Shown here: one piece after another, positions 43,937 through 56,897 of the stretch
Numbering within the stretch: position 1 is the stretch's first letter
Layout of the letters: every line of letters begins with the position of its first letter
Sequence record: PZ229304.1
Reading direction: 5' to 3' (one strand)
Source of the DNA: a phage
Length of the DNA stretch: 64,000 bases
Position numbers and translations under genes: made by a program
Notes under the pieces: generated by a model
Databases searched by the model: none
What the model was told of the DNA's origin: nothing
The model's input: only the letters and a program-made list of their open reading frames with translations

Positions 43937-44227
43937 TCACATTAAGACACGTTTTGTATTGATGGGGGCATTGTCGAACATGTTTATCACTTTGTCAAGT
44001 TTGTGTATTAACTCGTTCGTAATGTTCCACTCTTTGTATGATCTCCATTGCTTCTTATTCTCACCTACCTGGTGTAAAACTTTTATTGGTGCATTCAAAC
44101 GTACATTGCGTTCTTTGTCCTCTTCAAAAGAGGCTAACCATTTTTCGTTATGTCCATGAACAGCAATAATAATGCCAAAACCATCAAAAGTTTCTGTAAT
44201 ATTCTTAGTTGCTAGTGTGATGTTCAT
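43937..44227 (-). CDS. Hypothetical protein
   Basis: 96-aa ORF; first gene of the minus-strand block. Confidence 0.35.
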   Translation of the reverse strand: MNITLATKNITETFDGFGIIIAVHGHNEKWLASFEEDKERNVRLNAPIKVLHQVGENKKQWRSYKEWNITNELIHKLDKVINMFDNAPINTKRVLM

Positions 44228-44286
44228 ATCTAACCTCTTTTGTTACGATGCACACAGAGTACCAGAAATTAATTTCAGATCAAGTA

Positions 44287-44315
44287 TTGACATACTGTTT
44301 TATTGTGCTAATCTT
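44287..44315 (+). promoter_or_regulatory. Sigma70-like promoter (TTGACA -35, weak -10) in the divergent region
   Basis: Exact TTGACA at 44287-44292; AT-rich -10 candidates 16-18 nt downstream; upstream of gene 44347..44898. Confidence 0.35.
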
Positions 44316-44346
44316 AATGCATACACAAATGAGAGGAGATAAACGA

Positions 44347-44898
44347 ATGCAAAACATCGATCTTACTTGGATAGAAGCCAAAGAAGCAATGTTAAAAGGT
44401 AAACGCGTTAAACATAAATACTTTTGCGAAGGAGAATGGTTTGAAATGCGTAACCGATCCCTTATAGATGAAAAAGGGAATGACATGCAACAATGGTTCA
44501 AAAATGAAATTTGGCAGGGAACAGGTTGGTCTGTAGTTGAAGAGCAGCCTAGCTCAAGCGCACTGTTTAGCCCTATTATGTATCGCGTTATCGGTGCTTT
44601 AGTTGTTGATCACGGGATTGCAGTGGAAAAAGAATGCTGGGAAGAGGTATCTTTTTTCAACCTGGCTTCTTATGCAAAAAGCCATATGCACTTGTTTGAA
44701 GAAGGGGATGAATTTGTTCTTCGTATGCGATATGGCAAAGAATTCAGATTACCACTTGATAACGATGTAGACACTGTTGTAAAATGGTTAGCAGAGCATT
44801 ACGCTTACGATGCAATTTGTGGTCGCAGCTTCGGCAACGAACGCTGGGACATGATTTGTGAAAAATATGATTTTGAGCCGGAGTACGGAGTTTTATAA
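44347..44898 (+). CDS. Hypothetical protein
   Basis: Start set at MQNIDLTW (GAGGAG RBS); in-frame within ORF 44248..44898. Confidence 0.4.
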   Translation: MQNIDLTWIEAKEAMLKGKRVKHKYFCEGEWFEMRNRSLIDEKGNDMQQWFKNEIWQGTGWSVVEEQPSSSALFSPIMYRVIGALVVDHGIAVEKECWEEVSFFNLASYAKSHMHLFEEGDEFVLRMRYGKEFRLPLDNDVDTVVKWLAEHYAYDAICGRSFGNERWDMICEKYDFEPEYGVL

Positions 44899-45149
44899 TG
44901 TTAAGTATCAAACCTAAAATGATAACAGAAGACGAAGCAGACTTTATTTTCAAATGTGGACGTGTATGGAGAGAATTCACAAAAGGAAATGAAGTGGTTG
45001 TTGTTGTCGAACACAAGATATCTATCCAGGATCTGTTTGGACAATATGTTGATGTTATTAAATTAGGTATTGACAAGGGTTTAGTTGAGGTGTTAACATT
45101 AGATCAAGTTGAAGCAGAGCACCTCGATAAAGTGGTGGTTGAATTTTAA
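44898..45149 (+). CDS. Hypothetical protein
   Basis: 83-aa ORF. Confidence 0.35.
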   Translation: MLSIKPKMITEDEADFIFKCGRVWREFTKGNEVVVVVEHKISIQDLFGQYVDVIKLGIDKGLVEVLTLDQVEAEHLDKVVVEF

Positions 45150-45169
45150 AATACAGACGGGAGAAAGGT

Positions 45170-45343
45170 ATGAGTTTCTTTGTTACAGTATTTATGGCTA
45201 TCTGGATTGTAGTCTCACTCGTTCTTTTCCTGGTGGGTTGTCTGGAAGAGATTAAGAAAGCGGTTATTTGCGGTTTCTTTGGCTTTATTATCTCTCCTGC
45301 CTGGATGTGGTTCTTCATTATGATTGGTTTCCTTAAAAGGTAA
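45170..45343 (+). CDS. Small membrane protein (57 aa, below ORF-track cutoff)
   Basis: ATG after GGGAGAAAGG; highly hydrophobic (MSFFVTVFMAIWIVVSLVLFLVG...). Confidence 0.3.
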   Translation: MSFFVTVFMAIWIVVSLVLFLVGCLEEIKKAVICGFFGFIISPAWMWFFIMIGFLKR

Positions 45344-45357
45344 GTGAGGAATAAAGA

Positions 45358-45795
45358 ATGAGTAAAACAAACGCAATCGCAGATAAAGCAACGGATGTAC
45401 TTCTGAACATGGTTAACGTCACTATTCAAACAATGAGTGATGTTGTAGAGTTTGGAAAACAACAAATTCCAGAAGTAATCCATCAATTATTAGTGTGGAA
45501 AGCAGTATCCGCAGGTTTATGGCAACTTTTTAGTATTTGCTTTATGTTTATTACTTTTATTGCTGTGCGGAACCTCGTAAAAGCAATTAAAGATAAAGAA
45601 TGCCTGTGGTCACGAGATCGCTATGGTGAAGTATCTCCTTTACCTATTGTTGGCCTTGTTGTCTGTGCTTTCTTTTTCTTTTTAGGATTTGTTATTTTCT
45701 TTTCGAATTTTGATTGGCTAAAAATCATTATTGCACCAAAAGTGTATCTGATTGAATTTGCTGCTGATTTAATTCGTTCATCTCAACAAAAATAA
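45358..45795 (+). CDS. Membrane protein (hypothetical)
   Basis: 145 aa with several hydrophobic segments. Confidence 0.4.
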   Translation: MSKTNAIADKATDVLLNMVNVTIQTMSDVVEFGKQQIPEVIHQLLVWKAVSAGLWQLFSICFMFITFIAVRNLVKAIKDKECLWSRDRYGEVSPLPIVGLVVCAFFFFLGFVIFFSNFDWLKIIIAPKVYLIEFAADLIRSSQQK

Positions 45796-45806
45796 AAGGG
45801 GTTAAA

Positions 45807-46934
45807 ATGAAATACACGATTTATGGTGATATTGTAAGTGTAAATAAAGATATGGGCGTGGAATCTAACTATCTTCCACCTGGATTCTATACTGTTAGTC
45901 GTGATCCCCTTGGCAATTACTTTTTAAGCCGTGGTAATCTAACAGGTGTACCGGATGTTCTGTATGGTGAAACAGAAAAACGAGCAAATCACGTTATTCG
46001 TACATTCCATCGCCGGAGTGCACAAGGTAAAAATACAGGCTTGCTTCTGACAGGAACTAAGGGCAGTGGTAAAACTATGTTAGCCAAACTCATTAGTCGT
46101 GACCTTGTAGAAGAAGGTATTCCAACTATTATGGTTACTCAAGCCTACAGTGATGCTAATTTCATTGAACTTATTAGTAAGATCACCGACAAAGCAGTGA
46201 TTATTTTTGACGAATTTGATAAAGTATATGAGAAGAAACAAGATCAAGAAGCACTTCTCACTTTGTTAGATGGTACTGGCAGTGGTAATAAACTGTTTAT
46301 TCTAACTAAAAACAGTGGCTTTATCTCTGAATTCTTTCTAAATCGTCCTAGTCGTGTGTTTTATAATTTTAATTATGATAAAATCTCACTAGAAACTATG
46401 ATTGACTATTTAGATAAAAACCTGGATAACAAAGCACACTTGGATAATTTCCAAAGGCTTTGGGATGTAAGTTTAGAGTTGTCCTTTGATGTGATCCAAG
46501 GTATAGTAGAAGAACTTAATTTCTACCCTGATTTATCCTTTAAAGAATGCATCTCTATGATGGGCGTTTCTTTGGGTGGTGGTAATAAGTGGGATATCAG
46601 CAGCGTTGTTATTAATGGGAAACTTCAGAAAGTTAGCTGGGTATCTAGTTGGCATAACTTCACACCTGCAATCTTTTTAGGTGGCTCGTGCACACTAGAC
46701 GTGTACTTGTCATCTCCAAGTGATGCAGACTCTAAAGAAGCCCTTGCTAATAGCTCTTACGTGGTTTTTGATGATGAAGGAGATGCTCGAATTCCATTGA
46801 ATGCGACAAAAATGAAAGCAGATCTTATTACAGGCGGTAAAATCGTTGTGTTTAGTGATGATCCAGAAGATTCTTTCCGTATTGTTCTGGAACCAACTAT
46901 CACCAATGGTGCAACTTTGGCAAGTGTGTTTTAA
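45807..46934 (+). CDS. P-loop ATPase (AAA+-like), paralog 2
   Basis: 375 aa; collinear with 29630..30790 (GTKGSGKT, IIFDEFDK, LTKN, NRPSRVFYNF). Confidence 0.55.
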   Translation: MKYTIYGDIVSVNKDMGVESNYLPPGFYTVSRDPLGNYFLSRGNLTGVPDVLYGETEKRANHVIRTFHRRSAQGKNTGLLLTGTKGSGKTMLAKLISRDLVEEGIPTIMVTQAYSDANFIELISKITDKAVIIFDEFDKVYEKKQDQEALLTLLDGTGSGNKLFILTKNSGFISEFFLNRPSRVFYNFNYDKISLETMIDYLDKNLDNKAHLDNFQRLWDVSLELSFDVIQGIVEELNFYPDLSFKECISMMGVSLGGGNKWDISSVVINGKLQKVSWVSSWHNFTPAIFLGGSCTLDVYLSSPSDADSKEALANSSYVVFDDEGDARIPLNATKMKADLITGGKIVVFSDDPEDSFRIVLEPTITNGATLASVF

Positions 46935-46948
46935 GTAAGCCAGCAAAT

Positions 46949-46975
46949 AAAAACCCGCTTCGGCGGGTTTTCTTG
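46949..46975 (+). terminator. Rho-independent terminator (AAACCCGC-TTCG-GCGGGTTT + TCTTG)
   Basis: 8-bp perfect stem with tetraloop and T-rich tail 15 nt after stop. Confidence 0.55.
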
Positions 46976-47008
46976 CATTAATGCCAGATTTAATAAGAGG
47001 AGTAGTAG

Positions 47009-48202
47009 ATGGCAGCACCAAAATCATGGGAACAATATAAAGAAGAGTGTCAACCTATTGCGAATAATAAAGGGATTGAGATCCTAGGATATGTTGAACC
47101 GTTTATAGGTTGTGATACGAAAATGATTCTACGCTGTAGGCAGGAACATGAATGGAAGACTTGTAGTATTAGTAATTTCAAGCACGGTAACAGTTGTCCT
47201 ATCTGTTCTGGTAAGAAGCCGTTAACATGGGAAACAGAATTGCCGATCTTGGAAGAGATAGCACAGAAGAAGGGGTATCAGGTGTTAGGGTACGTTGGAG
47301 AATGGAAAGGGAATAAAACAAAACTTGATTTGTTGTGCCATTGTGGGAATAGATGGCAAAGTACAGCAATTCATCAATTTAAAGGCGGTCGAGGTTGTCC
47401 ACAATGTAGGGGGGAGAATACAAGGAAGGCACTAACAATGTCCGACGATCAACATATTGCAGATTTCTTTTCTACAGGGAAATTTAAGGAAGGCACTATC
47501 TTCACTAACACAGGAACACGGAGTAAAGGATGCAGGCATAGTATCTGGATGGTTGAATGTCCTGTTTGCTCTCATGATGAATATGTTCAAGCAGGTGTTT
47601 GTGATGGTAAATTTTACTCTGAAGGAAATAACCTTAAACGAGGGTGCATTCCGTGTCGTTGTGGAAACTATCGGTATACAGAAGACCAGATCACCTATAG
47701 GGTAAAAAAGGAAGTAGAAGGGCAAGGGTATGTCTGGGTAGGTTGGATCGGTAAACCGTCTAGAAGTCACGGTAAGTTTAAATATCTTTGTCTTGTGCAT
47801 GGGGAACAGACAGGGAGGGCTAATAACTTATTAAGCCTCGGTCAAGGTTGTCCACAGTGTGCTGGTCATAATCAACAGCAATTATATATTAATATTGTTA
47901 AAGATAATGATATTATAGTGGCTCTTAAGTTTGGTATAGCTAAAGATAGTGATAGGCGATTAAATAGTCAAAATAGTTGTAATATGTTTTTTATGGAGCG
48001 TATTTGTTTATATGATTTTAGCACAGTGAAACAATGTAAGGCTGCTGAAAGAGCTATAAAGAAAAAATTAAAAACTGGTATTTTAACGGAAAGAGAGTTG
48101 AAAGACGGTTATACAGAAACAGTAAGTGTTTCTGATTTGGAAAATCTTCAAGAAATTATTACACAACATGGTGGCAAATTAGTATATAATAAGGAGATGT
48201 AA
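47009..48202 (+). CDS. Zinc-ribbon repeat protein with C-terminal T5orf172/GIY-YIG-like region (tentative)
   Basis: 397 aa; four repeats each ending in a CxxC pair (CPICSG, CPQCRG, CIPCRCG, CPQCAG) with a conserved GY.VLGYV / TK(M/L) / EW pattern; C-terminus QLYINIVKDNDIIVALKFGIAKDSDRRL weakly resembles T5orf172-type domains. Confidence 0.35.
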   Translation: MAAPKSWEQYKEECQPIANNKGIEILGYVEPFIGCDTKMILRCRQEHEWKTCSISNFKHGNSCPICSGKKPLTWETELPILEEIAQKKGYQVLGYVGEWKGNKTKLDLLCHCGNRWQSTAIHQFKGGRGCPQCRGENTRKALTMSDDQHIADFFSTGKFKEGTIFTNTGTRSKGCRHSIWMVECPVCSHDEYVQAGVCDGKFYSEGNNLKRGCIPCRCGNYRYTEDQITYRVKKEVEGQGYVWVGWIGKPSRSHGKFKYLCLVHGEQTGRANNLLSLGQGCPQCAGHNQQQLYINIVKDNDIIVALKFGIAKDSDRRLNSQNSCNMFFMERICLYDFSTVKQCKAAERAIKKKLKTGILTERELKDGYTETVSVSDLENLQEIITQHGGKLVYNKEM

Positions 48203-48754
48203 ATGCGGATTACTGATAAATATGTGTTCTTCTTCTCGGCAAAAGATGAATTTAGCAACTGGTATCTATCATCTTTTATTGAACCTTTAGCTCCCAAGTA
48301 TAATAATTCTATTACAAGTTCTGTTGAATTTACTTGTGTGGAACAATATATGATGTGGAGAAAAGCATGTTTGTTTTATGATTACAACATTGCATCTTCT
48401 ATTTTAACCGGAGATCTAAGATATACAGGAGAAAAAGAACAGGCATATTATAAGCGACTAGGTAGATTAGTTAAAGATTACGATGAAGCTACTTGGACTT
48501 CTTTACGGGAGAAGATTGTCAAGCGTGGTTTGTATCTTAAATACACACAAAATGAAGATCTCAAAAATAAACTTATCGCTTACGCAGATAAGGAGTTCGT
48601 AGAGGCAAGCCCTTATGATTCTATTTATGGTATCAAAATGGGAATGTGGGATCGTGATGTGGAAAATAAGGACTGTTGGAAAGGACAAAATCTTTTAGGA
48701 AAATGGCATACAGACCTTGCTGTTTATCTAAAAGCACAATCTGATATTTCCTGA
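48203..48754 (+). CDS. NADAR (YbiA/DUF1768-like) domain protein
   Basis: 183 aa; N-terminal FFFS...FSNWY.S.F......F..VEQYMMW.KA.LF.D matches the YbiA/NADAR signature as recalled. Confidence 0.55.
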   Translation: MRITDKYVFFFSAKDEFSNWYLSSFIEPLAPKYNNSITSSVEFTCVEQYMMWRKACLFYDYNIASSILTGDLRYTGEKEQAYYKRLGRLVKDYDEATWTSLREKIVKRGLYLKYTQNEDLKNKLIAYADKEFVEASPYDSIYGIKMGMWDRDVENKDCWKGQNLLGKWHTDLAVYLKAQSDIS

Positions 48755-48968
48755 TATTTTGAAAATTTTTATTTTTATAAAAAGGGGTGTGGGTTTCATG
48801 TACGGAAATCCACCCTCTGAATAATATATCCAGAGTAAATATTATTCTGTACTCTGTTAATAAAGTATTTAATTTGTTTGTTGGACTATGGTATCTGATC
48901 TTTAAAAGGCATACTATCTCTTAACTACTACTTATAACAGAACAGTAAAATCATTTTTATAAAAAGGA

Positions 48969-49170
48969 CAAAATTATTTAAAGTTTTTACAGATTTTTGG
49001 GTACAAATTTTGAAAATGAAAAGTTCAAGTTTGGTCAAAATTATTTAAAGTTTTTGTATGTATTTCTATCCAGATTTTGAAAATGAAAACTTCAATTTTT
49101 TAAAAATTCCCCAGTTTATTTAAAGTTTTTTTGCCTTTTTCCGTAGAAAAATCAAAAATGAAAAGTTCAA
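48969..49170. repeat. Three direct repeats (about 65-75 bp period) each containing TTATTTAAAGTTTTT and TTGAAAATGAAAA(G/C)TTCAA
   Basis: Units begin near 48969, 49036 and 49110; the second motif is itself a partial palindrome (TTGAA...TTCAA); region is non-coding and AT-rich. Confidence 0.6.
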
Positions 49171-49195
49171 TTTCGTGTTTTTATAGGTGTGCGTA

Positions 49196-49303
49196 TGATA
49201 ATCATTCTCATTTGTAAATGAGAATCATTATCATTTAAGTATGTAAGTGATAATCATTCTCATTAAGAGAATGAGAATCATTAGCAAATGAGAATTTTTC
49301 TCA
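49196..49303. promoter_or_regulatory. Cluster of five Fur-box-like 15-mers (TGATAATCATTCTCA and variants)
   Basis: Sites at 49196-49210, 49219-49233, 49248-49262, 49272-49286, 49289-49303; best sites match the 7-1-7 Fur consensus TGATAATnATTATCA at 14/15. Confidence 0.5.
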
Positions 49304-49567
49304 TTTAGAGAATAACGCGCAGGGGCGGTGTTTGTCTCGCGCTCCCGTGTCCCCTCGCCATACAATAAGAATAGCATAACCAACAACAAAAGCAAGCGAT
49401 TATTTTTATCTTTACATTTCTTTACAAATTTATTTTAGACGAGCTACCGGCGATCAACCTTCCAACCAGTGCCCCCTGGTATGTTAGCCCCGCCTTTACG
49501 CCGTGGGGGTGGCGCTTCCTCTTCTGTATGTAAAACAGTATAAGCCCGATCCCTGGGCTTGTCAAGA

Positions 49568-49834
49568 TTATTTTTTGTTTTCTTGCCAGGATAGGACACC
49601 TAACCAAAAATACATGTCGCCCCGCGCCCCTGGTGGGATCTTGCTTTCCCCGCCGCCACTGCAAGCCCATAGATAACCATTAGCGAACGGATCAAAGTTT
49701 TCTATTTCTTCCACCTTATGATCGCCCAGGTTGAGAACGGTTTCGACCTTTAAGCCCGTTGCGCTTGCTACCTGGTGCACCGTGCCGCCTTGCCAGCCCA
49801 ATGAGTGCATAAGGTGTAAAGTAGTATTTGTCAT
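49568..49834 (-). CDS. Hypothetical protein in GC-rich island (low confidence)
   Basis: 88-aa ORF with weak RBS; surrounding 49310-50050 is visibly more GC-rich than the rest of the window. Confidence 0.25.
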   Translation of the reverse strand: MTNTTLHLMHSLGWQGGTVHQVASATGLKVETVLNLGDHKVEEIENFDPFANGYLWACSGGGESKIPPGARGDMYFWLGVLSWQENKK

Positions 49835-49945
49835 GGTATCGCCCTTTCTTTGATGTGCGCCCTGGTTGGCGCGGTAGAAAGATAATAGCCGTTTCCTTTA
49901 TAGATAGCAAGCAAAAAAAGAAATGAAAAAAGATTAAAAAAATGG

Positions 49946-50265: not shown

Positions 50266-50286
50266 TAACAGAAGAGAGAAATAATC

Positions 50287-50559
50287 ATGGCATCATATAG
50301 CGCATCAATGATCGTAGCTGGCATCACTGGTAAACCTATGCGCGGTGGCGGATCTTTCGCTAACATCAATATTGATGGACGTTTATCCCTGGACGCAGCG
50401 ATCACCGTGGCACGGGAAACGTTTAAAAAAGAATGTAATTTCAATAAACAAGATTATCTCGGTTTCGCTATTGAAAAAACCGCGCGATTTGTGGATTATA
50501 AAAGCCCGAAAATGATCGACACTACACTAAAAGCGCAAGATGTAGCGTTTTTGCTTTAA
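50287..50559 (+). CDS. Hypothetical early protein
   Basis: 90-aa ORF following promoter cassette. Confidence 0.45.
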   Translation: MASYSASMIVAGITGKPMRGGGSFANINIDGRLSLDAAITVARETFKKECNFNKQDYLGFAIEKTARFVDYKSPKMIDTTLKAQDVAFLL

Positions 50560-50562
50560 GGC

Positions 50563-50623
50563 TTGACACTGAAAAATACTTTGTTAATATATACCACATA
50601 AGGCGGGGAAATGGTTTCCCGCC
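50563..50623 (+). promoter_or_regulatory. Early promoter cassette: TTGACA-16-TAATAT + CACATAAGGCGGGG + hairpin GGCGGGGAAA-TGG-TTTCCCGCC
   Basis: Consensus-like hexamers; 9-bp stem hairpin at 50603-50623. Confidence 0.6.
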
Positions 50624-50645
50624 AAATCAAAGAAAGGGTAATGCA

Positions 50646-51008
50646 ATGAGCAAGCAAATCAATACTATCATGTTTAATCTGGTATCTTTCCGCGATGACG
50701 TGAAAAACCTTTCGCGTGGTGCAGTGGATGCACGGATCGAAAGCTATCGCACACAGATCGCAACGTTACCGCTGAAACGTGATCAACATGCCGCTAATAT
50801 GATGCTTGATGCTATGATTAAAAAGATGATTCAATGTGATCTTACTCTGGCTTATGAATATGCTGGCGATCTCTTTGTAACGTATAACAAGCCCGTTCCA
50901 GGTATGAGCACCACGGAAGAATTGCATGCCTTAAATCTGCGACAAGATGCATGGGATAACATGCGCCGTGTTATGGTATGGGTAGAAAGCGGCAAAATTT
51001 ACGCGTAA
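50646..51008 (+). CDS. Hypothetical early protein
   Basis: 120-aa ORF. Confidence 0.45.
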   Translation: MSKQINTIMFNLVSFRDDVKNLSRGAVDARIESYRTQIATLPLKRDQHAANMMLDAMIKKMIQCDLTLAYEYAGDLFVTYNKPVPGMSTTEELHALNLRQDAWDNMRRVMVWVESGKIYA

Positions 51009-51012
51009 AGAT

Positions 51013-51065
51013 TGACATTACACGAAAACCTGATAAGCTATCTTAAAGCGGGAATAGTTCCCGCT
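51013..51065 (+). promoter_or_regulatory. Early promoter cassette (TTGACA, weak -10) + hairpin GCGGGAA-TAG-TTCCCGC
   Basis: Exact -35 at 51013-51018; hairpin 51048-51064. Confidence 0.4.
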
Positions 51066-51083
51066 TACATAGGATAAAACTTT

Positions 51084-51230
51084 ATGAAACAATATGTAAT
51101 GAGTATTCATACCAAAAACGGCGCTACTGTTACGACTCCGGCACGGTTTGCACTTGTAAACCGTTGCAAGAGACTAAAACGAGAGCTAAAAAATAACCGT
51201 GCAACCGGTTTTAAACGCTGGGGAGGATAA
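51084..51230 (+). CDS. Small basic hypothetical protein (48 aa)
   Basis: ATG downstream of promoter cassette; below ORF-track cutoff. Confidence 0.3.
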   Translation: MKQYVMSIHTKNGATVTTPARFALVNRCKRLKRELKNNRATGFKRWGG

Positions 51231-51232
51231 TC

Positions 51233-51493
51233 TTGTTTTTTCTAAAAGTTTTTGATAATGTGATCGCTTTTGAACATGCTACGACGTTCGACCTGGCGAG
51301 ATACGCTATCAGGTTTAAAGATAATGTTTATCCCCGTGCTGGCGGCGGTTACACTATTTTTAATCATCGTAACGCTCAATTAACGGATATAACTAATCCA
51401 GGCCCTGGAGTGTATCGCATAGGCTGGCTACCGTCAAAAGACGCGGCAAGCATGTTTAAGGTATGTAAACTACTAACAGAAGAGGCGAACTAA
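51233..51493 (+). CDS. Hypothetical early protein (TTG start)
   Basis: 86-aa ORF; TTG 5 nt after GGGAGGA. Confidence 0.4.
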   Translation: MFFLKVFDNVIAFEHATTFDLARYAIRFKDNVYPRAGGGYTIFNHRNAQLTDITNPGPGVYRIGWLPSKDAASMFKVCKLLTEEAN

Positions 51494-51494
51494 C

Positions 51495-52049
51495 ATGGGG
51501 CGTGAGTATGTGATCCAGTCCTGGGTAAAGCATGACGCTAATGATCCGCGCATAATACCAGATGACATGATCGATCACATGGTAGGGTATAGCGGGGAGC
51601 AGATAGGAAATCGAGCGGCAAAGAGCAACGGCAACACAAAGGCGCGATCCGTTCGCCCTGGTTGGCTGGCAAATGGTAACGCTGACATTGCAAGCGCCGC
51701 AGATCCAAGCGATGACGCTAAAAATAATCCCTTGTACAGCATTGATCCGGCTTTTAAGGTGTTGGAAGAGTATCCCGCTAAATTAGCCGCACTAGATAAG
51801 GCATACGAAGAAAAGCGCATGGCATGGACTGTATACAACACCGCTAAAATGGTGCTAGATGCAAAATTGATTAAAGCCCAGGAGAAGATCAATAAACTTG
51901 TTACCATAGCGCAAGAGGAAGACCAGGACGACCAGGAGGAAGAGGAAGAAATCATGCCTATCCTGGAAGAGGAAGAGATCCAGCCATACATGCCGACGGA
52001 AGAGGAAAAAAGACAAGCCCTAAAAAATTACGAAAATTGTATTGTGTAA
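51495..52049 (+). CDS. Hypothetical early protein with acidic C-terminal region
   Basis: 184 aa; EEDQDDQEEEEE stretch. Confidence 0.45.
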   Translation: MGREYVIQSWVKHDANDPRIIPDDMIDHMVGYSGEQIGNRAAKSNGNTKARSVRPGWLANGNADIASAADPSDDAKNNPLYSIDPAFKVLEEYPAKLAALDKAYEEKRMAWTVYNTAKMVLDAKLIKAQEKINKLVTIAQEEDQDDQEEEEEIMPILEEEEIQPYMPTEEEKRQALKNYENCIV

Positions 52050-52052
52050 GGC

Positions 52053-52109
52053 TTGACATATGCAAACAAGCCCCGTAATATGTACCACATAAAGCGGGGC
52101 AACGCCCCA
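52053..52109 (+). promoter_or_regulatory. Early promoter cassette: TTGACA-17-TAATAT + CACATAAAGCGGGG + short hairpin
   Basis: Consensus-like hexamers; GGGGC-AAC-GCCCC hairpin. Confidence 0.5.
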
Positions 52110-52130
52110 TAAGGTGAAATAAAAAATCAC

Positions 52131-52158
52131 TTGACACCTGAAATCAGTAAGCTATAAT
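52131..52158 (+). promoter_or_regulatory. Perfect-consensus sigma70 promoter (TTGACA-16-TATAAT), tandem to the cassette 75 bp upstream
   Basis: Both hexamers identical to consensus with 16-nt spacer; 37 nt upstream of ATG at 52196. Confidence 0.6.
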
Positions 52159-52195
52159 GCTTATATAGATTGAAACATTACTAAGGAATAAAAGC

Positions 52196-52375
52196 ATGGC
52201 TATTATTGCAAAGACTGAGATCGTAGGTTTAGATTCTATCATCCTGGCATATGAGGAAGCTATAGAAATGTATGTGGTTTCCTATGGTGATTATATCCGT
52301 GAATATAAATCTATTGATCTAGCTTTTGAATGTTATATTCGCCAGGTAAATAAAGCATACGATGATTATCGTTAA
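52196..52375 (+). CDS. Small hypothetical protein (59 aa)
   Basis: ATG after AAGGAATAAAAGC; just below ORF-track cutoff. Confidence 0.35.
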   Translation: MAIIAKTEIVGLDSIILAYEEAIEMYVVSYGDYIREYKSIDLAFECYIRQVNKAYDDYR

Positions 52376-52470
52376 AAGTTTTAGTCTTGTGCTATTGACA
52401 ACGAACGATAGTACAAGCATAATAACTTTTATCGGGAATACTCCTAACTAATCAAAAGAGATTAAAGACT

Positions 52471-52836
52471 ATGGCTAAAAATATCAATGTTTCTGCTTAT
52501 GCTACCCTGGCTAACACTGCTAAAATTGAACTATCCAGCATTGAAGCGGTACATATTAGCGCCCGTCGCTGGTTTCAAAAGTCTTATGGTAATACTTATT
52601 TCTCTTTGATGGTTGACGTTGAGATCGGCGGTAAACTGATTGAAGTCGTTAACGTTCCGTTTCAATATGGCTACGGGGATCATTTTGATACCGTTGCCCT
52701 AGAAGAGTTTAGCAAGGTTATCAACCTGGAAGGTAAAGACTTTTCAAATTATGCTTACCTTTCCCGCTTTTGCCGTGATAATGGGATCGCTGTATACAGT
52801 CATGCAAGCGATGTTAAACGTAAAAAAGATTTATAA
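52471..52836 (+). CDS. Hypothetical early protein
   Basis: 121-aa ORF with RBS. Confidence 0.45.
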   Translation: MAKNINVSAYATLANTAKIELSSIEAVHISARRWFQKSYGNTYFSLMVDVEIGGKLIEVVNVPFQYGYGDHFDTVALEEFSKVINLEGKDFSNYAYLSRFCRDNGIAVYSHASDVKRKKDL

Positions 52837-52842
52837 AAAGCA

Positions 52843-52901
52843 TTGACAGCACGAATAAAAAGCATATAATACTTATATCGAGAGCGGGAATAGTTCCCGC
52901 C
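52843..52901 (+). promoter_or_regulatory. Early promoter cassette: TTGACA-16-TATAAT + hairpin GCGGGAA-TAG-TTCCCGC
   Basis: Consensus hexamers; hairpin 52884-52900. Confidence 0.6.
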
Positions 52902-52924
52902 TCACTGAAAAAGAGATTAACATC

Positions 52925-53164
52925 ATGGCTAAATCTAAAATGTACAACGGTCACAAAAATAAAACTCATTGGAATGTAAGCCTTTGGATCAACAATGATG
53001 AAGGTTTTTATAATCTTGCACGTGAATTTATTGCAGCTAACACCAATAAGAATGACGCAGCGCGTGATATGATGCTATTTCTTGAAAGTATGGATCAAGA
53101 TAAAACGCCAGACGGTTACAAGTTCAGTAAAACTGCAATCCGCGCCGCGATGGTTGGAATGTAA
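52925..53164 (+). CDS. Hypothetical early protein
   Basis: 79-aa ORF. Confidence 0.45.
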   Translation: MAKSKMYNGHKNKTHWNVSLWINNDEGFYNLAREFIAANTNKNDAARDMMLFLESMDQDKTPDGYKFSKTAIRAAMVGM

Positions 53165-53259
53165 AGGAGACATAAAAATGAAACATCGTTCGACCTATCT
53201 CACAAAACGTTTTAGCTTAGATCATAAATTGGGCTATTACGGAAGAAATAGAAAATAAT

Positions 53260-53319
53260 TTGACAACGTTTTAAATTAGTGTAATATATATCACATAGGG
53301 CGGGAAATGGTTTCCCGCC
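53260..53319 (+). promoter_or_regulatory. Early promoter cassette: TTGACA-16-TAATAT + CACATAGGGCGGG + hairpin GGCGGGAAA-TGG-TTTCCCGCC
   Basis: Consensus-like hexamers; 9-bp stem at 53299-53319. Confidence 0.6.
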
Positions 53320-53341
53320 AAATCAAAGAAAGGTTATCATT

Positions 53342-53569
53342 ATGGCTATCGTTATTGTTCGCGTATCCGGTACGGTTGGAATCTCTCAGGTAGTAGCAGT
53401 TATCACAGAGAAGAAAGGAGATGATCTTCACTCCTCCTTGAATAGCTGGGCGGTCGCTAATTTTGGGCAATGGTCGAGCGTTGAGTACATCGAATCCTAC
53501 CAGGTGCCAACGATTAGCCTGACCGATCTGAATGTTGATCGCTTGTTGTGCCTGGATCAATTAAATTAA
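53342..53569 (+). CDS. Hypothetical early protein
   Basis: 75-aa ORF. Confidence 0.45.
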   Translation: MAIVIVRVSGTVGISQVVAVITEKKGDDLHSSLNSWAVANFGQWSSVEYIESYQVPTISLTDLNVDRLLCLDQLN

Positions 53570-53577
53570 AAATAATA

Positions 53578-53635
53578 TTGACAAGATAACTAAAATCAGT
53601 AAAATGTAATGCATAGGGCGGCACTATTGCCGCCC
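53578..53635 (+). promoter_or_regulatory. Early promoter cassette: TTGACA-16-TAAAAT + GCATAGGGCGG + hairpin GGGCGGCA-CTAT-TGCCGCCC
   Basis: Perfect 8-bp stem at 53616-53635. Confidence 0.55.
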
Positions 53636-53655
53636 TAGTGAGAGAGATTATCAAA

Positions 53656-53871
53656 ATGGCTAATATCCGCACACTGTTAAAAAATGCAAGTCAAGTTTTA
53701 TTTTCAGATGACGAATATTTTAATAAAGATATTACAGGCGTGAAAAATTTAAAAGACGTGAAGGATGTTATCGGTATCCGTGGATCTTTACGTAAAGGTG
53801 ACATATACGGTAACAAGGTGCAGTATAAACTGTCAAAAGATTATGATTTTACTTTGACAATTATTTCATAA
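53656..53871 (+). CDS. Hypothetical early protein
   Basis: Start set at MANIRTLL downstream of the cassette. Confidence 0.4.
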   Translation: MANIRTLLKNASQVLFSDDEYFNKDITGVKNLKDVKDVIGIRGSLRKGDIYGNKVQYKLSKDYDFTLTIIS

Positions 53872-53877
53872 AACTAC

Positions 53878-53938
53878 TTGCAAACCTGGTAAAATAAAGT
53901 AAACTATATTCATTAAGGCGGTGGAATAGCCAACCGCC
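53878..53938 (+). promoter_or_regulatory. Early promoter cassette variant: TTGCAA-16-TAAACT + imperfect hairpin GGCGGT...ACCGCC
   Basis: -35 variant; hairpin 53917-53938. Confidence 0.4.
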
Positions 53939-53962
53939 TAACAAAGAGAAGAGGAAAACATC

Positions 53963-54133
53963 ATGATCACTTTCGCTACCCGTGAAGCCGCTCGCAACGT
54001 TGCACGTAAAGTTAACGCCGCCAACCTGGGCGCTACGCTTAAAGCCCCGGTAAAAGATGAATCAGGAAAATGGATCTTCCCTGGTCTGCGTCACGCTGAT
54101 AAGCTGGGAACATTAACGTTAAAAAATAAATAA
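53963..54133 (+). CDS. Small hypothetical protein (56 aa)
   Basis: ATG after AGAGGAAAACATC; below ORF-track cutoff. Confidence 0.3.
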   Translation: MITFATREAARNVARKVNAANLGATLKAPVKDESGKWIFPGLRHADKLGTLTLKNK

Positions 54134-54140
54134 TATTCGC

Positions 54141-54199
54141 TTGACAGTAGCATCATTTATAAGTAAAGTAACAACAACGGCGGGAAATGGTTTCCCGCC
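54141..54199 (+). promoter_or_regulatory. Early promoter cassette: TTGACA-17-TAAAGT + hairpin GGCGGGAAA-TGG-TTTCCCGCC
   Basis: Hairpin 54179-54199 identical to that at 53299-53319. Confidence 0.55.
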
Positions 54200-54219
54200 A
54201 TCAATAAAGAGATAAGATT

Positions 54220-54579
54220 ATGAAATCAGCAAAAGCAATTAAAACTTACATTTTGTCGGCTATTTCTTTTGATGGTACTACAACCGAAAAAGAAAAAATC
54301 ACCGAACTGATGCGCCGTTTTAATTCTGAATACTGGTATCCCGATAATCAAAAACGTTACAATTATAACGTGATCAAGGCGATAGCCTCATGGTTACAAG
54401 GTTTACCGTCAGAAATCAATATTGCTTTTGATTATAACGAGATCGATCACTTGTTAATTGAATGGAAGTACATAAAAGAAACAAGCAAAGAAACAACCGT
54501 TACCCGTGAGCGGGAAAATTATTGGTTATATATTGCAAGCATGATCGTAATCCTGGCAAAACAGCATAACGTGGCGTAA
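54220..54579 (+). CDS. Hypothetical early protein
   Basis: 119-aa ORF. Confidence 0.45.
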   Translation: MKSAKAIKTYILSAISFDGTTTEKEKITELMRRFNSEYWYPDNQKRYNYNVIKAIASWLQGLPSEINIAFDYNEIDHLLIEWKYIKETSKETTVTRERENYWLYIASMIVILAKQHNVA

Positions 54580-54594
54580 TTAAGAGGAAGAAAC

Positions 54595-54732
54595 ATGAAC
54601 GCATCACAGCAGATCGAAAAATTCAACCGCAGCAAGGCGCGTAAAGATTGGAACGAAGAGATCACCAAAAAAGGTGACAAGCGGAACAAAACAAAGAGAG
54701 ATCGCAGCACAAAAAGATACTGGAACGAATAA
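54595..54732 (+). CDS. Small basic hypothetical protein (45 aa)
   Basis: ATG after AAGAGGAAG; Lys/Arg-rich. Confidence 0.3.
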   Translation: MNASQQIEKFNRSKARKDWNEEITKKGDKRNKTKRDRSTKRYWNE

Positions 54733-54735
54733 CAA

Positions 54736-54762
54736 AAAAGGGCGCAATAAGCGCCCTTTTAG
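54736..54762 (+). terminator. Rho-independent terminator (AAGGGCGC-AATAA-GCGCCCTT + TT)
   Basis: 8-bp GC stem directly after the stop at 54730-54732. Confidence 0.5.
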
Positions 54763-54850
54763 CTTATATAGAGGCTTGTTACCCATAGGCAATGGTAACG
54801 CCAGGGCAAGCCTATAAATCAACGTTAGACGGCTTTACAGGAGCTTTAAA

Positions 54851-55033
54851 ATGAGATTAGAAGAAATAAGCAAGGCACTAGCCCAGGGGCAAAGGTTAAA
54901 CGCCCGTTATCGTGATCAATATGGTTTCATAACTAGCGGCGTGATCCTGGGGATTGAAGACAATAAGATTTTTATTGACACGTTGAAAAACGTTGTATAT
55001 AGTGACAATATAATCTCAATAAAACATATATGA
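54851..55033 (+). CDS. Hypothetical early protein
   Basis: 60-aa ORF. Confidence 0.4.
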   Translation: MRLEEISKALAQGQRLNARYRDQYGFITSGVILGIEDNKIFIDTLKNVVYSDNIISIKHI

Positions 55034-55041
55034 GGCAAGAA

Positions 55042-55443
55042 ATGAAAAAATTATTGATCGCTGGTTTACTCTCTTTTGGCATGGTTGGAACATCTAGCGC
55101 GGCGATATCCTCCACAGTAGCAGAATTAAGCGCCGTTGATGCAATGGAAAACGTCATGCTTATTAACAATGCGATCCCCGATGAAATCATGGAGGATTCA
55201 CACATGATCGCTTATGGTGCTGTTACACAACTAACGGCAAAAATAGATAAATCTATTGTTAATGGCTTAAATGAAGATGTACCATGTGAAATTATTACAA
55301 GTGTGCTGACTACTCAAAATTTTACGCCGTGGTTAAAAAGTATTCAAAAAGTACACAGTACAGCCGCAGATCGTAGCAATGAAAAACTAGTGTCAGCACT
55401 TGCAACGTATACCCTGGCAAAATGCACCGAGATAAAAGATTGA
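55042..55443 (+). CDS. Secreted hypothetical protein
   Basis: Start set at MKKLLIAGLLSFGMVGTSSAA (signal-peptide-like). Confidence 0.45.
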   Translation: MKKLLIAGLLSFGMVGTSSAAISSTVAELSAVDAMENVMLINNAIPDEIMEDSHMIAYGAVTQLTAKIDKSIVNGLNEDVPCEIITSVLTTQNFTPWLKSIQKVHSTAADRSNEKLVSALATYTLAKCTEIKD

Positions 55444-55466
55444 CAACATAGAAAGCACGTTATAAG
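55440..55466 (+). promoter_or_regulatory. Sigma70-like promoter (TTGACA-15-TATAAG), no 5' hairpin
   Basis: Exact -35; upstream of gene 55491. Confidence 0.35.
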
Positions 55467-55490
55467 ATACACACAACAAAGGAGAACTAC

Positions 55491-55787
55491 ATGAACGGCA
55501 TAGCTAAAACGTTTTTTCTTTTTTCTGGTGTAAATGATCCATCAATAAAAGTCGATAGTGTAAAAGAAAACAATACTATCACAGCTAAATTGTATCAAGA
55601 TGAAACAAATAACGTGCTAATCATTAATCTTAAAGAAATAACAAAAGGTTATTATGCTATTGCTTACCATGCGATTTATCATGCTGGTACTAGTGAGGAA
55701 GTGCAAACAAGCAACAACGAAAGCGCGGCGCTACCTGGTGATCTGGTGCTGGGCGTTATCAGTTTAATTGTCAATGATTTTTTTTAA
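55491..55787 (+). CDS. Hypothetical early protein
   Basis: 98-aa ORF with AAGGAG RBS. Confidence 0.45.
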   Translation: MNGIAKTFFLFSGVNDPSIKVDSVKENNTITAKLYQDETNNVLIINLKEITKGYYAIAYHAIYHAGTSEEVQTSNNESAALPGDLVLGVISLIVNDFF

Positions 55788-56052
55788 GGAGTAAAACCAT
55801 GCCCTATTTACATTTATTTTTCGGTATCTTATTGACGGGATCTTTTTTCTTCTGTATGCTTGTTTCTATTGTAAACCACGTTTTAAGACATTAAGGAAAC
55901 AGCATGAAAATTATTCCCGTACAATATAGCGTAATAAATCCAGCATACGAGGAAGGAAGGAAAACAAGCATGGCTTTATGTTGTATTACTACTATAGCCA
56001 TGTTGTTATACATTGTGTTTTAATAGGTTTTATAGTTGTACGCTTTAAAGGC

Positions 56053-56081
56053 TTGACAATTTTTTGTTATGCTTTAAACTA
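56053..56081 (+). promoter_or_regulatory. Sigma70-like promoter (TTGACA, weak -10)
   Basis: Exact -35 at 56053-56058. Confidence 0.35.
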
Positions 56082-56123
56082 TATCTTGAAAACGGCAAAG
56101 GCCGCAAACAAAAGGGTAAAATT

Positions 56124-56447
56124 ATGAAATCTGTGATCGGTGTTTATTTGGATAACTCTGATTTTTTCTATCATCGCGCTCGTTTCCTTGATGCGATTGA
56201 AATGATAGAATCAGGCTTTAAAGAGTATCGCCTTGCACATGATGACCTGGAAGCATTACAGGGCAATAGTGTTTTTACATTGCAAGCGAAAGCACTATGT
56301 AAAAGCCGGATCGACATTGCGAGCAAAAAGATAGAACGCGGCATGTCCTGGTTGCGCACCGCAGAAATCAACATGGGGCAATGGCACGGCGAAAACTTAG
56401 AAAATAAACATACTTTTGTCAATGTAGAAAATATTGAAGATTATTGA
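56124..56447 (+). CDS. Hypothetical early protein
   Basis: Start set at MKSVIGVY. Confidence 0.4.
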   Translation: MKSVIGVYLDNSDFFYHRARFLDAIEMIESGFKEYRLAHDDLEALQGNSVFTLQAKALCKSRIDIASKKIERGMSWLRTAEINMGQWHGENLENKHTFVNVENIEDY

Positions 56448-56510: not shown

Positions 56511-56529
56511 TTAAAAGAAGAGATAAGCT

Positions 56530-56814: not shown

Positions 56815-56815
56815 T

Positions 56816-56875: not shown

Positions 56876-56897
56876 TCACAACAAAAGAGAACAAATC

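What the first reader, a model, noticed from the sequence alone, without database searches (positions are those of the whole stretch)
48969..49170. Three iteron-like direct repeats upstream of the Fur-box cluster
Three roughly 65-75 bp units each carry TTATTTAAAGTTTTT and the partially palindromic TTGAAAATGAAAA(G/C)TTCAA. Iterated protein-binding motifs next to AT-rich DNA are typical of replication origins (initiator iterons) or arrays of promoters for a specific polymerase or sigma factor. They are not CRISPR-like: no spacers of uniform length and no cas genes.
Basis: seen in the sequence. Interest (0 to 1): 0.5.

Follow-up and report, generated by a model that had tools for sequence, protein, structure and literature searches.

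The report
Three conserved phage-specific DNA recognition repeats
Three evenly spaced repeats in a gene-free stretch of a phi92-like coliphage are real, unique in the genome and kept in number and spacing across two phage subfamilies while their sequence changes by lineage, so they are probably docking sites for a phage-made DNA-binding protein; what that complex does is still unknown.

Summary
Window 48970-49178 holds three units (67 and 75 bp apart). Each has box A (TTATTTAAAGTTTTT), a fixed 21-bp gap and box B (TTGAAAATGAAAAGTTCAA). The window is a Justusliebigvirus (phi92-like) genome, and both boxes occur nowhere else in its ~145 kb.

The repeats are the upstream part of a non-coding module shared by Stephanstirmvirinae and Vequintavirinae:
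- three bipartite units, with unit 1 to unit 3 spanning 138-145 bp in every genome checked;
- 1-5 Fur boxes, the last lying inside a conserved sigma70-type promoter;
- a conserved GC-rich element of about 230 nt.

Box sequences are shared by the three units of one genome but differ between lineages. I infer a phage-encoded reader, which makes the repeats iteron-like.

The function is unresolved. In one relative the units are strong rightward sigma70 promoters, and window unit 3 aligns to them as TTGCCT-17-AAAAAT. My best guess is therefore a factor-controlled tandem promoter/operator array (confidence 0.4). A replication role (0.27) or a T5-like DNA-entry boundary (0.1) is not excluded. There are no DnaA or IHF sites and no local unwinding minimum. 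A step in third-codon-position GC skew does coincide with the module.

GenBank records mark the repeats only as 'repeat_region'.

The parts
48742..48759 (+). Two TGATATTT copies (48742-48749 and 48752-48759). The second starts with the stop codon of the upstream NADAR gene. This is the left edge of the non-coding module.
   Evidence: Read. The same GATATTT(G/T) repeats (2-4 copies) follow the stop codon of the upstream gene in all relatives of both subfamilies, although that gene is not homologous between them.
48783..48818 (+). Stable hairpin at the end of the upstream operon, with no U-run after it.
   Evidence: The + strand RNA folds at -20.7 kcal/mol (z -4.4). The minus strand reaches only -11.8 kcal/mol (z -1.45).
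48970..49036 (+). Unit 1: box A 48974-48988, box B 49010-49028.
   Evidence: gapless alignment with 16 other units.
49037..49111 (+). Unit 2: box A 49041-49055, box B 49077-49095. It is followed by AAAAATTCCCCAG, which is conserved ahead of unit 3.
49112..49178 (+). Unit 3: box A 49116-49130, box B 49152-49170. It carries a sigma70-like TTGCCT (49131-49136), a 17-bp spacer and AAAAAT (49154-49159).
   Evidence: It aligns base for base with the KP13-16 promoter unit TTGACA-17-CATAAT.
49191..49307 (.). Cluster of Fur-box-like sites: 49191, 49214, 49243 and 49267 within 4 mismatches of GATAATGATAATCATTATC, and an overlapping one at 49249 with 5. A further degenerate copy at 49290-49307 (more than 5 mismatches in this genome) lies in the promoter spacer.
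   Evidence: At up to 4 mismatches the window has 8 such sites against 0.39 in shuffles.
49284..49313 (+). Candidate Fur-gated sigma70 promoter: GCAAAT, 18-bp spacer, GAGAAT. In relatives it reads TTGAAT-[GAGAATCATTCTCATTTG]-CAGAAT.
   Evidence: The same arrangement is present in 12 genomes of both subfamilies. This is inferred from sequence; it is not a mapped transcription start.
49314..49545 (+). Conserved GC-rich element downstream of the Fur-box promoter (core 49409-49534). The strand on which it acts is not established.
   Evidence: It shows 83-100% identity in 246 phage records of Stephanstirmvirinae and Vequintavirinae and is aligned. Rfam has no match. Some compensatory pairs are seen, for example CG:9 / AU:3.
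49568..49834 (-). 88-aa ORF on the opposite strand (phrog_19316, unknown function). It is present in Stephanstirmvirinae and absent from the Certrevirus copies of the module.

Best explanation
The three units act as double-stranded DNA. They form an array of three bipartite recognition modules (box A, 21 bp, box B) for a sequence-specific DNA-binding protein that the phage encodes. Each module sits on a weak rightward promoter-like element: an A/T-rich box A in the position of an UP element, and a -10-like hexamer inside box B. Three copies about 70 bp apart, roughly one RNA-polymerase footprint (from general knowledge), would let the factor and host RNA polymerase assemble side by side. This complex would set how much rightward transcription enters the Fur-box promoter, the conserved GC-rich element and the 8-12-kb block of small early genes that runs to the terminal repeat.

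Shown: the repeats, their uniqueness in the genome, and their conserved number, spacing and position with lineage-specific box sequence.

Inferred: that a phage protein binds them; that they control transcription rather than another DNA transaction; and that host Fur binds the neighbouring boxes.
For: 1. The repeats are real and far beyond chance. They are the only copies found in the ~145-kb genome.
2. Seventeen units from six Stephanstirmvirinae genomes align without a single gap. Information content is high in box A and box B and low in the 24 columns between them.
3. Every enterobacterial-type relative checked has three units. Spacings are 66-67 + 75-76 bp (Stephanstirmvirinae), 74-76 + 67 (Mydo, GAP31), 78 + 63 (CR8, KaOmega) and 74 + 71 (Erwinia phage). 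Unit 1 to unit 3 is therefore 138-145 bp in both subfamilies.
4. Box sequence is lineage-specific. Stephanstirmvirinae have TTATTTAAAGTTTTT...AAAAYYRAAATTTAAA. Certre-, Seuna- and Mydovirus have GGGTTCTCGATCG...CGTATTT...AAAAAATTTTT. The Erwinia phage has GGGACTYGAG...AATGGATTTTC.
5. In the window's genus all three units share the same change in box B. That change replaces the critical second base (A to C) of the -10-like TAAAnT seen in sister genera.
6. For a link to promoters: the KP13-16 units are TTGACA-17-CATAAT and TGGACA-17-CATAAT, and window unit 3 aligns to them as TTGCCT-17-AAAAAT. Tuntematon units carry TTTACA-18-CAAAAT and KP13-26 unit 1 carries TTGAAA-18-TAAAAT.
7. The array always lies 167-218 bp upstream of a conserved Fur-box-overlapped promoter and downstream of the hairpin that ends the preceding operon.
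8. The units show no RNA structure on either strand (z about 0), so an RNA-level role is unlikely.
Against: No binding protein has been identified, and neighbouring genes give no clue. The sigma70 hexamers of window units 1 and 2 and of the Vequintavirinae units are poor. In this A/T-rich DNA, promoter-like matches are about as frequent on the minus strand as on the plus strand. The promoter reading therefore rests mainly on KP13-16 and on positional homology.

In Vequintavirinae a good minus-strand promoter fires leftward into the units. That suits an origin activated by transcription at least as well as it suits an operator array. A step in third-position GC skew coincides with the module in two subfamilies, which points to a link with replication or with a genome domain boundary. 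No transcription or binding data exist for any of these phages in the literature I could search.
Confidence: 0.4

Rival explanations
1. The repeats belong to a replication element. There are three forms of this idea. (a) They are iterons bound by a phage initiator. (b) They form a T7-type origin, in which transcripts from tandem promoters through A/T-rich DNA prime a T7-like replisome. (c) They are a polar fork barrier that bounds the terminal segment.
For: The repeat array is unique in the genome and lineage-specific, and it lies next to host-factor sites, as at plasmid and phage iteron origins. The rV5 group has a PolA-type polymerase and a gp4-like primase-helicase, and no origin has been found for it (PMC3606486). 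In Vequintavirinae a strong promoter fires into the units, which contain A6T5 tracts. GC3 skew of co-oriented genes steps at the module in the window (-0.03 against +0.11, p=0.002) and in KPP-1 (-0.09 against +0.06, p=0.004).
Against: No DnaA or IHF consensus lies in 48700-49900. The least stable DNA of the window is at 59.9-60.2 kb, not at the repeats. Unit spacing of 63-78 bp is unlike classical iterons, which are about 22 bp apart (established knowledge). No initiator-like gene is adjacent. The polarity of the skew step is that of converging forks, not of an origin. GC3 content also differs (0.39 against 0.32) and AT3 skew does not change, so the step may simply mark a different class of genes. 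The large-scale skew switch lies at ~44 kb and follows gene orientation.
Confidence: 0.27
2. The module is a boundary for DNA entry or genome ends, comparable to the bacteriophage T5 injection-stop region. It would mark off the terminal 8-12 kb of the genome, with Fur and a phage protein bound on the DNA.
For: The Fur-box cluster has blastn matches to T5-like phages at 9-10 kb, at the end of the left terminal repeat. There it lies between eight TGTCGGATTTGCACA direct repeats and DnaA boxes. That order matches the window: lineage-specific repeats, then Fur boxes, then another element.

The module lies ~11.7 kb from the region that is the 342-bp terminal repeat in phage BME3 (PMC12210895). In KPP-1 it lies 8.2-8.7 kb from a terminal repeat supported by coverage (PMC9862379). 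These distances are about 6-8% of the genome, against 7.9% for the T5 first-step transfer. Fur boxes also sit at the terminal-repeat side of the segment. Daunorubicin sensitivity is shared by T5-like phages and Vequintavirinae (PMC13250531).
Against: No two-step DNA transfer has been reported for these myoviruses. Which genome end enters first is unknown. The genes of the segment are transcribed toward the terminus, so entry from the other end, as in T7, is at least as likely. The Fur-box similarity could be convergence on the same host protein. The terminal-repeat positions come from PhageTerm or coverage in single studies, and the BME3 record is internally inconsistent.
Confidence: 0.1
3. 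The repeats work as RNA, as repeated motifs in a transcript that crosses the units, for example a protein or RNA sponge.
For: In Vequintavirinae a good minus-strand promoter points into the units. Promoter-like elements within the units could also transcribe the downstream units.
Against: The units have no RNA structure beyond shuffled controls on either strand (z between -1.6 and +0.3). Strictly conserved unit spacing and a fixed box A to box B distance are features of DNA-protein geometry. No equivalent leftward promoter is evident in the window.
Confidence: 0.05
4. The repeats are a functionless tandem duplication in A/T-rich spacer DNA.
For: None beyond the A/T-rich context.
Against: Number, spacing and boxes are conserved across two subfamilies while the spacers diverge. 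The repeats are 97.5-99.6% identical in 56 Justusliebigvirus-type records.
Confidence: 0.03

Closest known systems
Iterons of plasmid and phage replication origins (lambda ori, P1 oriR, pSC101, R6K, T4 oriE)
   Same: These are direct repeats found at one locus per genome. Their sequence is specific to the replicon lineage and co-evolves with a replicon-encoded binding protein. They lie next to binding sites for host factors.
   Different: Classical iterons are 17-22 bp and phased about 22 bp apart (established knowledge). They lie next to an A/T-rich unwinding element and DnaA or IHF sites, usually beside the initiator gene. Here the units are bipartite (about 55 bp), 63-78 bp apart and always three in number. 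The host-factor sites are Fur boxes, no DnaA or IHF sites or local stability minimum were found, and no initiator gene is adjacent.
Tandem early promoters of virulent phages (T7 A1-A2-A3; T5 early promoter clusters)
   Same: Three units lie in tandem in one orientation at the head of an early-gene block. In relative KP13-16 the homologous units are near-consensus sigma70 promoters, and window unit 3 keeps TTGCCT-17-AAAAAT.
   Different: The conserved boxes are not the sigma70 hexamers. Units 1 and 2 lack a -35. The boxes differ between phage lineages that share a host. Spacing is about 70 bp, against about 125 bp in T7 (from memory).
Bacteriophage T5 Repeat Region 3 (injection stop signal region)
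   Same: Both are large non-coding regions about 8% from a genome end that contain lineage-specific direct repeats (eight copies in the pork27 relative fetched here; nine DRD copies in T5). In both, the repeats lie directly beside Fur-box-like repeats that give significant blastn matches to the window cluster.
   Different: T5 has eight or nine short repeats (15-24 bp) and paired DnaA boxes in inverted repeats. The region straddles the end of a 10-kb terminal repeat. The GC-rich element of the window is absent there. The function of the T5 repeats is itself unproven.
Lambda cosB (R3-I1-R2-R1)
   Same: It has three repeats bound by a phage protein plus a host-factor site, at a unique locus (from memory; a lead only).
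   Different: cosB abuts the cut site, whereas this module lies 8-12 kb from the reported terminal repeat. This comparison was not tested further.

Membership tests
Origin iterons | Three or more direct repeats of one sequence at a single locus in the replicon | tested here: met
   Three units, and no other copy found in the ~145-kb genome.
Origin iterons | Short repeats (about 17-22 bp) phased at about two helical turns | tested here: not met
   The units are bipartite and 63-78 bp apart.
Origin iterons | Adjacent A/T-rich unwinding element that is the local minimum of duplex stability | tested here: not met
   The repeats are 75-82% A+T, but the least stable 60-mers of the window lie at 59.9-60.2 kb.
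Origin iterons | DnaA and/or IHF sites in the origin | tested here: not met
   No TTWTNCACA or WATCAANNNNTTR in 48700-49900. Fur boxes are present instead.
Origin iterons | Cognate initiator protein that binds the repeats; origin activity | not testable with these tools
   Neighbouring genes are uninformative. This needs marker-frequency analysis and binding assays.
Tandem sigma70 early promoters | -35 and -10 hexamers 16-18 bp apart in each unit | tested here: inconclusive
   Unit 3 has TTGCCT-17-AAAAAT (8 of 12). Units 1 and 2 have only GAAAAT and no -35. The KP13-16 homologues score 10.5-11.5. Minus-strand matches are equally common.
Tandem sigma70 early promoters | Conserved bases are the hexamers read by sigma70 | tested here: not met
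   The conserved boxes lie outside or only partly over the hexamers. The window genus has C at the critical second base of the -10 found in sister genera, in all three units.
Promoters of a phage-specific polymerase or sigma factor | The same motif upstream of many genes across the genome | tested here: not met
   The motif is found only at this locus.
CRISPR array | Identical 24-48-bp repeats with spacers of uniform length, and cas genes | tested here: not met
   The two boxes have unequal gaps (21 bp, then 12 or 20 bp), there are only three units, and the locus is in a virulent phage genome with no cas genes nearby.
T5-type injection-stop region | [quoted passage not shown] | tested here: inconclusive
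   The distance to the reported terminal repeat is 11.7 kb in the window and 8.2-8.7 kb in KPP-1. Which end enters first is unknown.
T5-type injection-stop region | Paired DnaA boxes in inverted repeats | tested here: not met
   No DnaA consensus is present.
T5-type injection-stop region | Two-step DNA transfer | not testable with these tools
   This needs DNA-entry experiments.

The most novel reading that the evidence does not exclude
The three repeats, the Fur boxes and the GC-rich element together form a genome-domain boundary. With a phage protein and host Fur bound, this boundary would halt a DNA transaction at the edge of the terminal 8-12-kb early-gene segment. That transaction could be a replication fork or DNA entry. 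On this reading the module would be a counterpart in myoviruses of the unexplained T5 injection-stop region, and Fur would be the unrecognised host factor shared by T5-like, rV5-like, phi92-like and Alcyoneusvirus phages.
Probability: 0.12. Interest if true: 0.85.

Novelty: new variant of a known kind. Interest (0 to 1): 0.5.

Why it matters
The rV5/phi92 group contains broad-host-range phages that are considered for therapy. Their origin of replication is still unknown, and the rV5 genome paper shows a 'non-coding' box that it leaves unexplained.

This work shows that the box is an ordered module kept across two subfamilies: three phage-specific repeats, a promoter gated by host Fur boxes, and a conserved GC-rich element. 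That gives concrete sites to delete, pull down or map.

The Fur boxes also link the module to the repeat region where phage T5 stops DNA injection. A recent analysis of that region (Davison, bioRxiv 10.1101/866236) does not mention Fur. If Fur binds there, iron status could be an overlooked input to early infection in several unrelated families of enterobacterial phages.

Tried and rejected
- An IMG/VR scan with the A/T-rich pattern TATTTAAANNTTTN{50,58}TATTTAAA returned only chance matches. None carried the module anchor.
- Rfam found nothing at gathering thresholds. In E-value mode it returned only weak miRNA-type noise over the Fur palindromes. There are no tRNA genes.
- Pfam, PHROG and PDB searches of the neighbouring proteins were uninformative: NADAR, CapR/T5orf172, a generic AAA ATPase and unknowns. 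The AAA ATPase is not homologous to the gene upstream of the module in CR8.
- No DnaA or IHF sites were found, and the unwinding minimum is not at the repeats.
- I considered that the hairpin at 48783-48818 terminates leftward transcripts. This is rejected, because it folds well only on the + strand.
- A role for the units as RNA structure is rejected, with z-scores near zero.
- Sigma54- and sigma32-like matches (read; relatives) occur in single units only and are not conserved. I rejected them by eye.
- The fact that records such as ETEC-TG start near the module says nothing about genome ends, because that record is circular.
- RNAalifold on the GC-rich element was inconclusive on both strands.
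- Literature searches found no earlier description of these repeats and no transcriptome for these phages. The only 'Fur box' hit concerned sit operons of lambda-like prophages.

Full report
**What the window is.** The 751 bases around the finding are 97-99% identical to about 55 Justusliebigvirus (phi92-like, Stephanstirmvirinae) coliphage genomes. The best match is phage outra at 99.2%. In phages alia and inny the repeats carry only the bare annotation 'repeat_region'.

The finding lies in a gene-poor gap of ~1.5 kb. The gap runs from a NADAR/YbiA-like gene (48203-48754) to the next plus-strand gene (50287). It sits inside a ~30-kb block of many small plus-strand genes of early type. The switch in gene orientation and GC skew is ~5 kb to the left, at ~44 kb, not at the repeats.

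**Check of the observation.** The repeats are real.
- The repeat finder gives three 79-nt copies spaced 67 and 75 bp.
- TTATTTAAAGTTTTT ('box A') is exact at 48974, 49041 and 49116.
- TTGAAAATGAAAAGTTCAA ('box B') is at 49010, 49077 and 49152 with 0-2 mismatches. That is 3 matches against 0.11 expected, and no shuffle reached 3.
- The gap between box A and box B is 21 bp in every unit.
- Neither box occurs anywhere else in the window or in the rest of the genome, represented by phage outra. About 1.6 kb of that genome (50001-51649) was not fetched.

**The repeats are part of a conserved module.** More distant Stephanstirmvirinae have the same layout after the upstream gene. These are tuntematon, Citrobacter Tr1, and Klebsiella phi1_175008, FKP3 and KP13-26. 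The order is:
1. GATATTT repeats at the stop codon of the upstream gene;
2. a hairpin (not clear in every relative);
3. three units;
4. Fur-box-like palindromes;
5. a GC-rich stretch conserved far better than its surroundings.

Vequintavirinae also have this layout. I checked CR8, KaOmega, Mydo, GAP31, KE22 and an Erwinia phage. There the three units have entirely different sequences. Most read GGGTTCTCGATCG ... CGTATTT ... AAAAAATTTTT. The Erwinia phage reads GGGACTYGAG ... AATGGATTTTC ... AAAAAATTTTT.

An IMG/VR scan anchored on the GC-rich element added 16 true relatives. Fourteen have the three-unit layout, with spacings of about 63-78 bp. Two distant ones (L193 and L238) have two units, with GTGATAGTT boxes in place of Fur boxes.

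**Geometry is conserved while sequence is not.**
- Unit spacings are 66-67 + 75-76 bp in Stephanstirmvirinae, 74-76 + 67 in Mydo and GAP31, 78 + 63 in CR8 and KaOmega, and 74 + 71 in the Erwinia phage.
- Unit 1 to unit 3 is therefore 138-145 bp in all of them.
- Seventeen Stephanstirmvirinae units align over 68 columns without a single gap. The consensus is TTATTTAAAnTTTTT, then 24 mostly variable columns, then AAAAnnAAAATTTAAAnTTT.
- In this genus all three units carry the same box B variant (AAAATGAAAAGTTCAA instead of AAAAYYRAAATTTAAA).

Phages of one host carry different boxes: E. coli for Justusliebigvirus and for rV5-like phages, and Klebsiella for FKP3 and KaOmega. The three copies within a genome also change together. 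This is the defining logic of iterons. It is an inference; no protein was identified.

**What lies downstream.** The window has five sites within 5 mismatches of the E. coli Fur consensus between 49191 and 49285 (two of them overlap), plus a degenerate copy at 49290-49307. At up to 4 mismatches the whole window has 8 such sites, against 0.39 in shuffles.

In all 12 genomes compared, the last box fills the 18-bp spacer of a sigma70-type promoter: TTGAAT-[GAGAATCATTCTCATTTG]-CAGAAT. In the window this reads GCAAAT-18-GAGAAT at 49284-49313. A conserved GACGSGCAGG follows it. That is the classic arrangement for repression by Fur (established knowledge), but it has not been tested here.

The promoter points into the GC-rich element (49314-49545). 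The core of that element is 83-87% identical even in Proteus, Pectobacterium and Cronobacter phages. It has no Rfam match. It shows a few compensatory changes, but RNAalifold gives no convincing consensus fold on either strand.

**Promoter or origin?**

*For a promoter link.*
- In Klebsiella phage KP13-16 the units at the homologous position are near-consensus rightward sigma70 promoters (TTGACA-17-CATAAT and TGGACA-17-CATAAT).
- Window unit 3 aligns to them base for base as TTGCCT (49131-49136), 17 bp, AAAAAT (49154-49159).
- Tuntematon units have TTTACA-18-CAAAAT, and KP13-26 unit 1 has TTGAAA-18-TAAAAT.
- In sister genera, box B ends in a -10-like TA(A/G)AnT.

*Against a plain sigma70 reading.*
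- Window units 1 and 2 have no -35.
- In the window genus the critical second base of that -10 is C in all three units.
- The conserved boxes are not the sigma70 hexamers.
- Minus-strand promoter-like matches are just as frequent in this A/T-rich DNA.
- The motif is not used anywhere else in the genome. This argues against a phage-specific polymerase or sigma factor with a regulon.

*Against a classical origin.*
- There is no DnaA or IHF consensus.
- The least stable DNA of the window is at 59.9-60.2 kb.
- The unit spacing is atypical, and no initiator gene is adjacent.

*For some link to replication.*
- Vequintavirinae have a good leftward promoter firing into the units: GAP31 TTGACA-18-GAAAAT, Mydo TTGACT-17-GATACT, and the Erwinia phage TGGACG-17-CATAAT with an upstream TG.
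- The group has a T7-like replisome and no known origin.

The units have no RNA structure on either strand, so they most likely act as DNA.

**A genome-domain boundary.** BME3 is reported to have 342-bp direct terminal repeats (PMC12210895). The start of its record and its annotated repeat map to window ~60.7-61.1 kb, although the record is internally inconsistent. This places the repeat in a second non-coding region, which also holds Fur boxes at 60767 and 60962, with a further one at 59889 just upstream.

In the Vequintavirinae phage KPP-1, a 514-bp terminal repeat is supported by doubled read coverage (PMC9862379). It lies 8.2-8.7 kb from the module. As in the window, the genes in between are transcribed toward the repeat.

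Among genes of the same orientation, third-codon-position GC skew steps at the module in both phages.

| Phage | Segment between module and terminal repeat | Flanking genes | Mann-Whitney p |
|---|---|---|---|
| Window | -0.03 | +0.11 | 0.002 |
| KPP-1 | -0.09 | +0.06 | 0.004 |

AT3 skew does not change, and in the window GC3 content also differs (0.39 against 0.32). The polarity would fit converging forks rather than an origin. A distinct class of genes explains it equally well. I leave this unexplained.

**The T5 parallel.** The Fur-box cluster has blastn matches (E about 1e-6) to T5-like phages at 9-10 kb and to the terminal repeat of the jumbo Klebsiella phage Muenster. In a T5 relative the order is eight TGTCGGATTTGCACA direct repeats, then Fur-like boxes, then DnaA boxes, straddling the end of the left terminal repeat. 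This is Davison's 'Repeat Region 3', the candidate injection stop signal. His analysis does not mention Fur.

The shared order of lineage-specific repeats next to Fur boxes, at about 6-8% from a genome end, is suggestive. It could also be convergence on a host protein. No two-step transfer is known for these myoviruses. The daunorubicin sensitivity shared by T5-like phages and Vequintavirinae is only circumstantial.

**Verdict.** 'Iteron-like' is a fair description in the sense of repeats read by a co-evolving phage factor.

| Explanation | Confidence |
|---|---|
| Factor-controlled tandem promoter/operator array feeding the Fur-gated promoter and the terminal early-gene segment | 0.4 |
| Replication element | 0.27 |
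| T5-like boundary for DNA entry or genome ends | 0.1 |
| RNA-level repeats | 0.05 |
| Functionless duplication | 0.03 |

I found no earlier description of the module in the searchable literature. The rV5 paper shows only an unexplained 'non-coding' box.

Noticed in passing
window 49314-49545 (core 49409-49534): A GC-rich non-coding element is conserved at 83-100% in 246 phage records of two subfamilies. This is far more than the flanking DNA. It sits directly downstream of the Fur-box promoter, has no Rfam match, and contains an invariant CTACCGGCGAT and a TCTTTACAnTTCTTTACAAA direct repeat. A few compensatory pairs are present, but no convincing consensus fold emerged on either strand.
   Followed up: partly
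L004 (T5-like pork27) 2972-3176; L005 (Klebsiella phage Muenster) 787-1324; window 49191-49307: Fur-box-like repeats occur in the large non-coding regions near the genome ends of unrelated enterobacterial phages. In T5-like phages they lie inside the candidate injection-stop region. In the jumbo Alcyoneusvirus phage Muenster they lie within the first ~1.3 kb of the terminal repeat. The T5 analysis I read does not mention Fur.
   Followed up: partly
window 59889-61400: A second non-coding region holds near-consensus Fur boxes at 60767 (2 mismatches) and 60962, with a further Fur-like site at 59889 just upstream. It corresponds to the 342-bp direct terminal repeat reported for phage BME3. The least stable DNA of the whole window (59.9-60.2 kb) lies just to its left.
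   Followed up: partly
window 50280-60500 compared with 44000-48760 and 61400-64000; L024 (KPP-1): Genes between the module and the terminal-repeat region have lower third-position GC skew than co-oriented genes outside (p=0.002), and in the window also higher GC3 content (0.39 against 0.32). The skew step recurs in KPP-1 (p=0.004), a member of a different subfamily. The cause is unknown; it could be replication polarity or a distinct class of genes.
   Followed up: partly
L017 about 812-840, L019 about 812-841, L018 about 932-960 (minus strand): In Vequintavirinae a good sigma70 promoter lies between unit 3 and the Fur boxes and points leftward into the three units. No clear equivalent is seen in the window.
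   Followed up: partly
window 48742-48759 and the equivalent positions in all relatives: TGATATTT(G/T) repeats (2-4 copies) begin exactly at the stop codon of the upstream gene in both subfamilies, even though that gene is not homologous between them. Each copy resembles an extended -10 element (TGnTAnnnT).
   Followed up: no
L193 and L238 (IMG/VR contigs): Distant relatives that carry the GC-rich element have two units (GGTCGTAGGATTTTTT...) about 155 bp apart. They have GTGATAGTT repeats where the enterobacterial phages have Fur boxes, which suggests a different host regulator at the same position.
   Followed up: no
window 47009-48202: A 397-aa protein has four CapR-homology repeats and a T5orf172 domain. 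Its length varies among otherwise near-identical phages (1398, 1173 and 978 nt in alia, inny and EmilieFrey), as expected for a mobile or fast-evolving gene.
   Followed up: no
L013 and L014 (BME3 record PP239276): The BME3 GenBank record repeats its first 788 bp and its first 342 bp again near the 3' end. Its annotated 'DTR-L' is offset from the start of the record, so the deposited ends are not self-consistent.
   Followed up: partly
window 49537-49565 (minus strand): A near-consensus TTGACA-17-TATACT lies directly after the minus-strand 88-aa ORF, and its spacer is a GC hairpin. It may be a terminator hairpin that happens to look like a promoter, or it may start a leftward transcript across the GC-rich element.
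   Followed up: no
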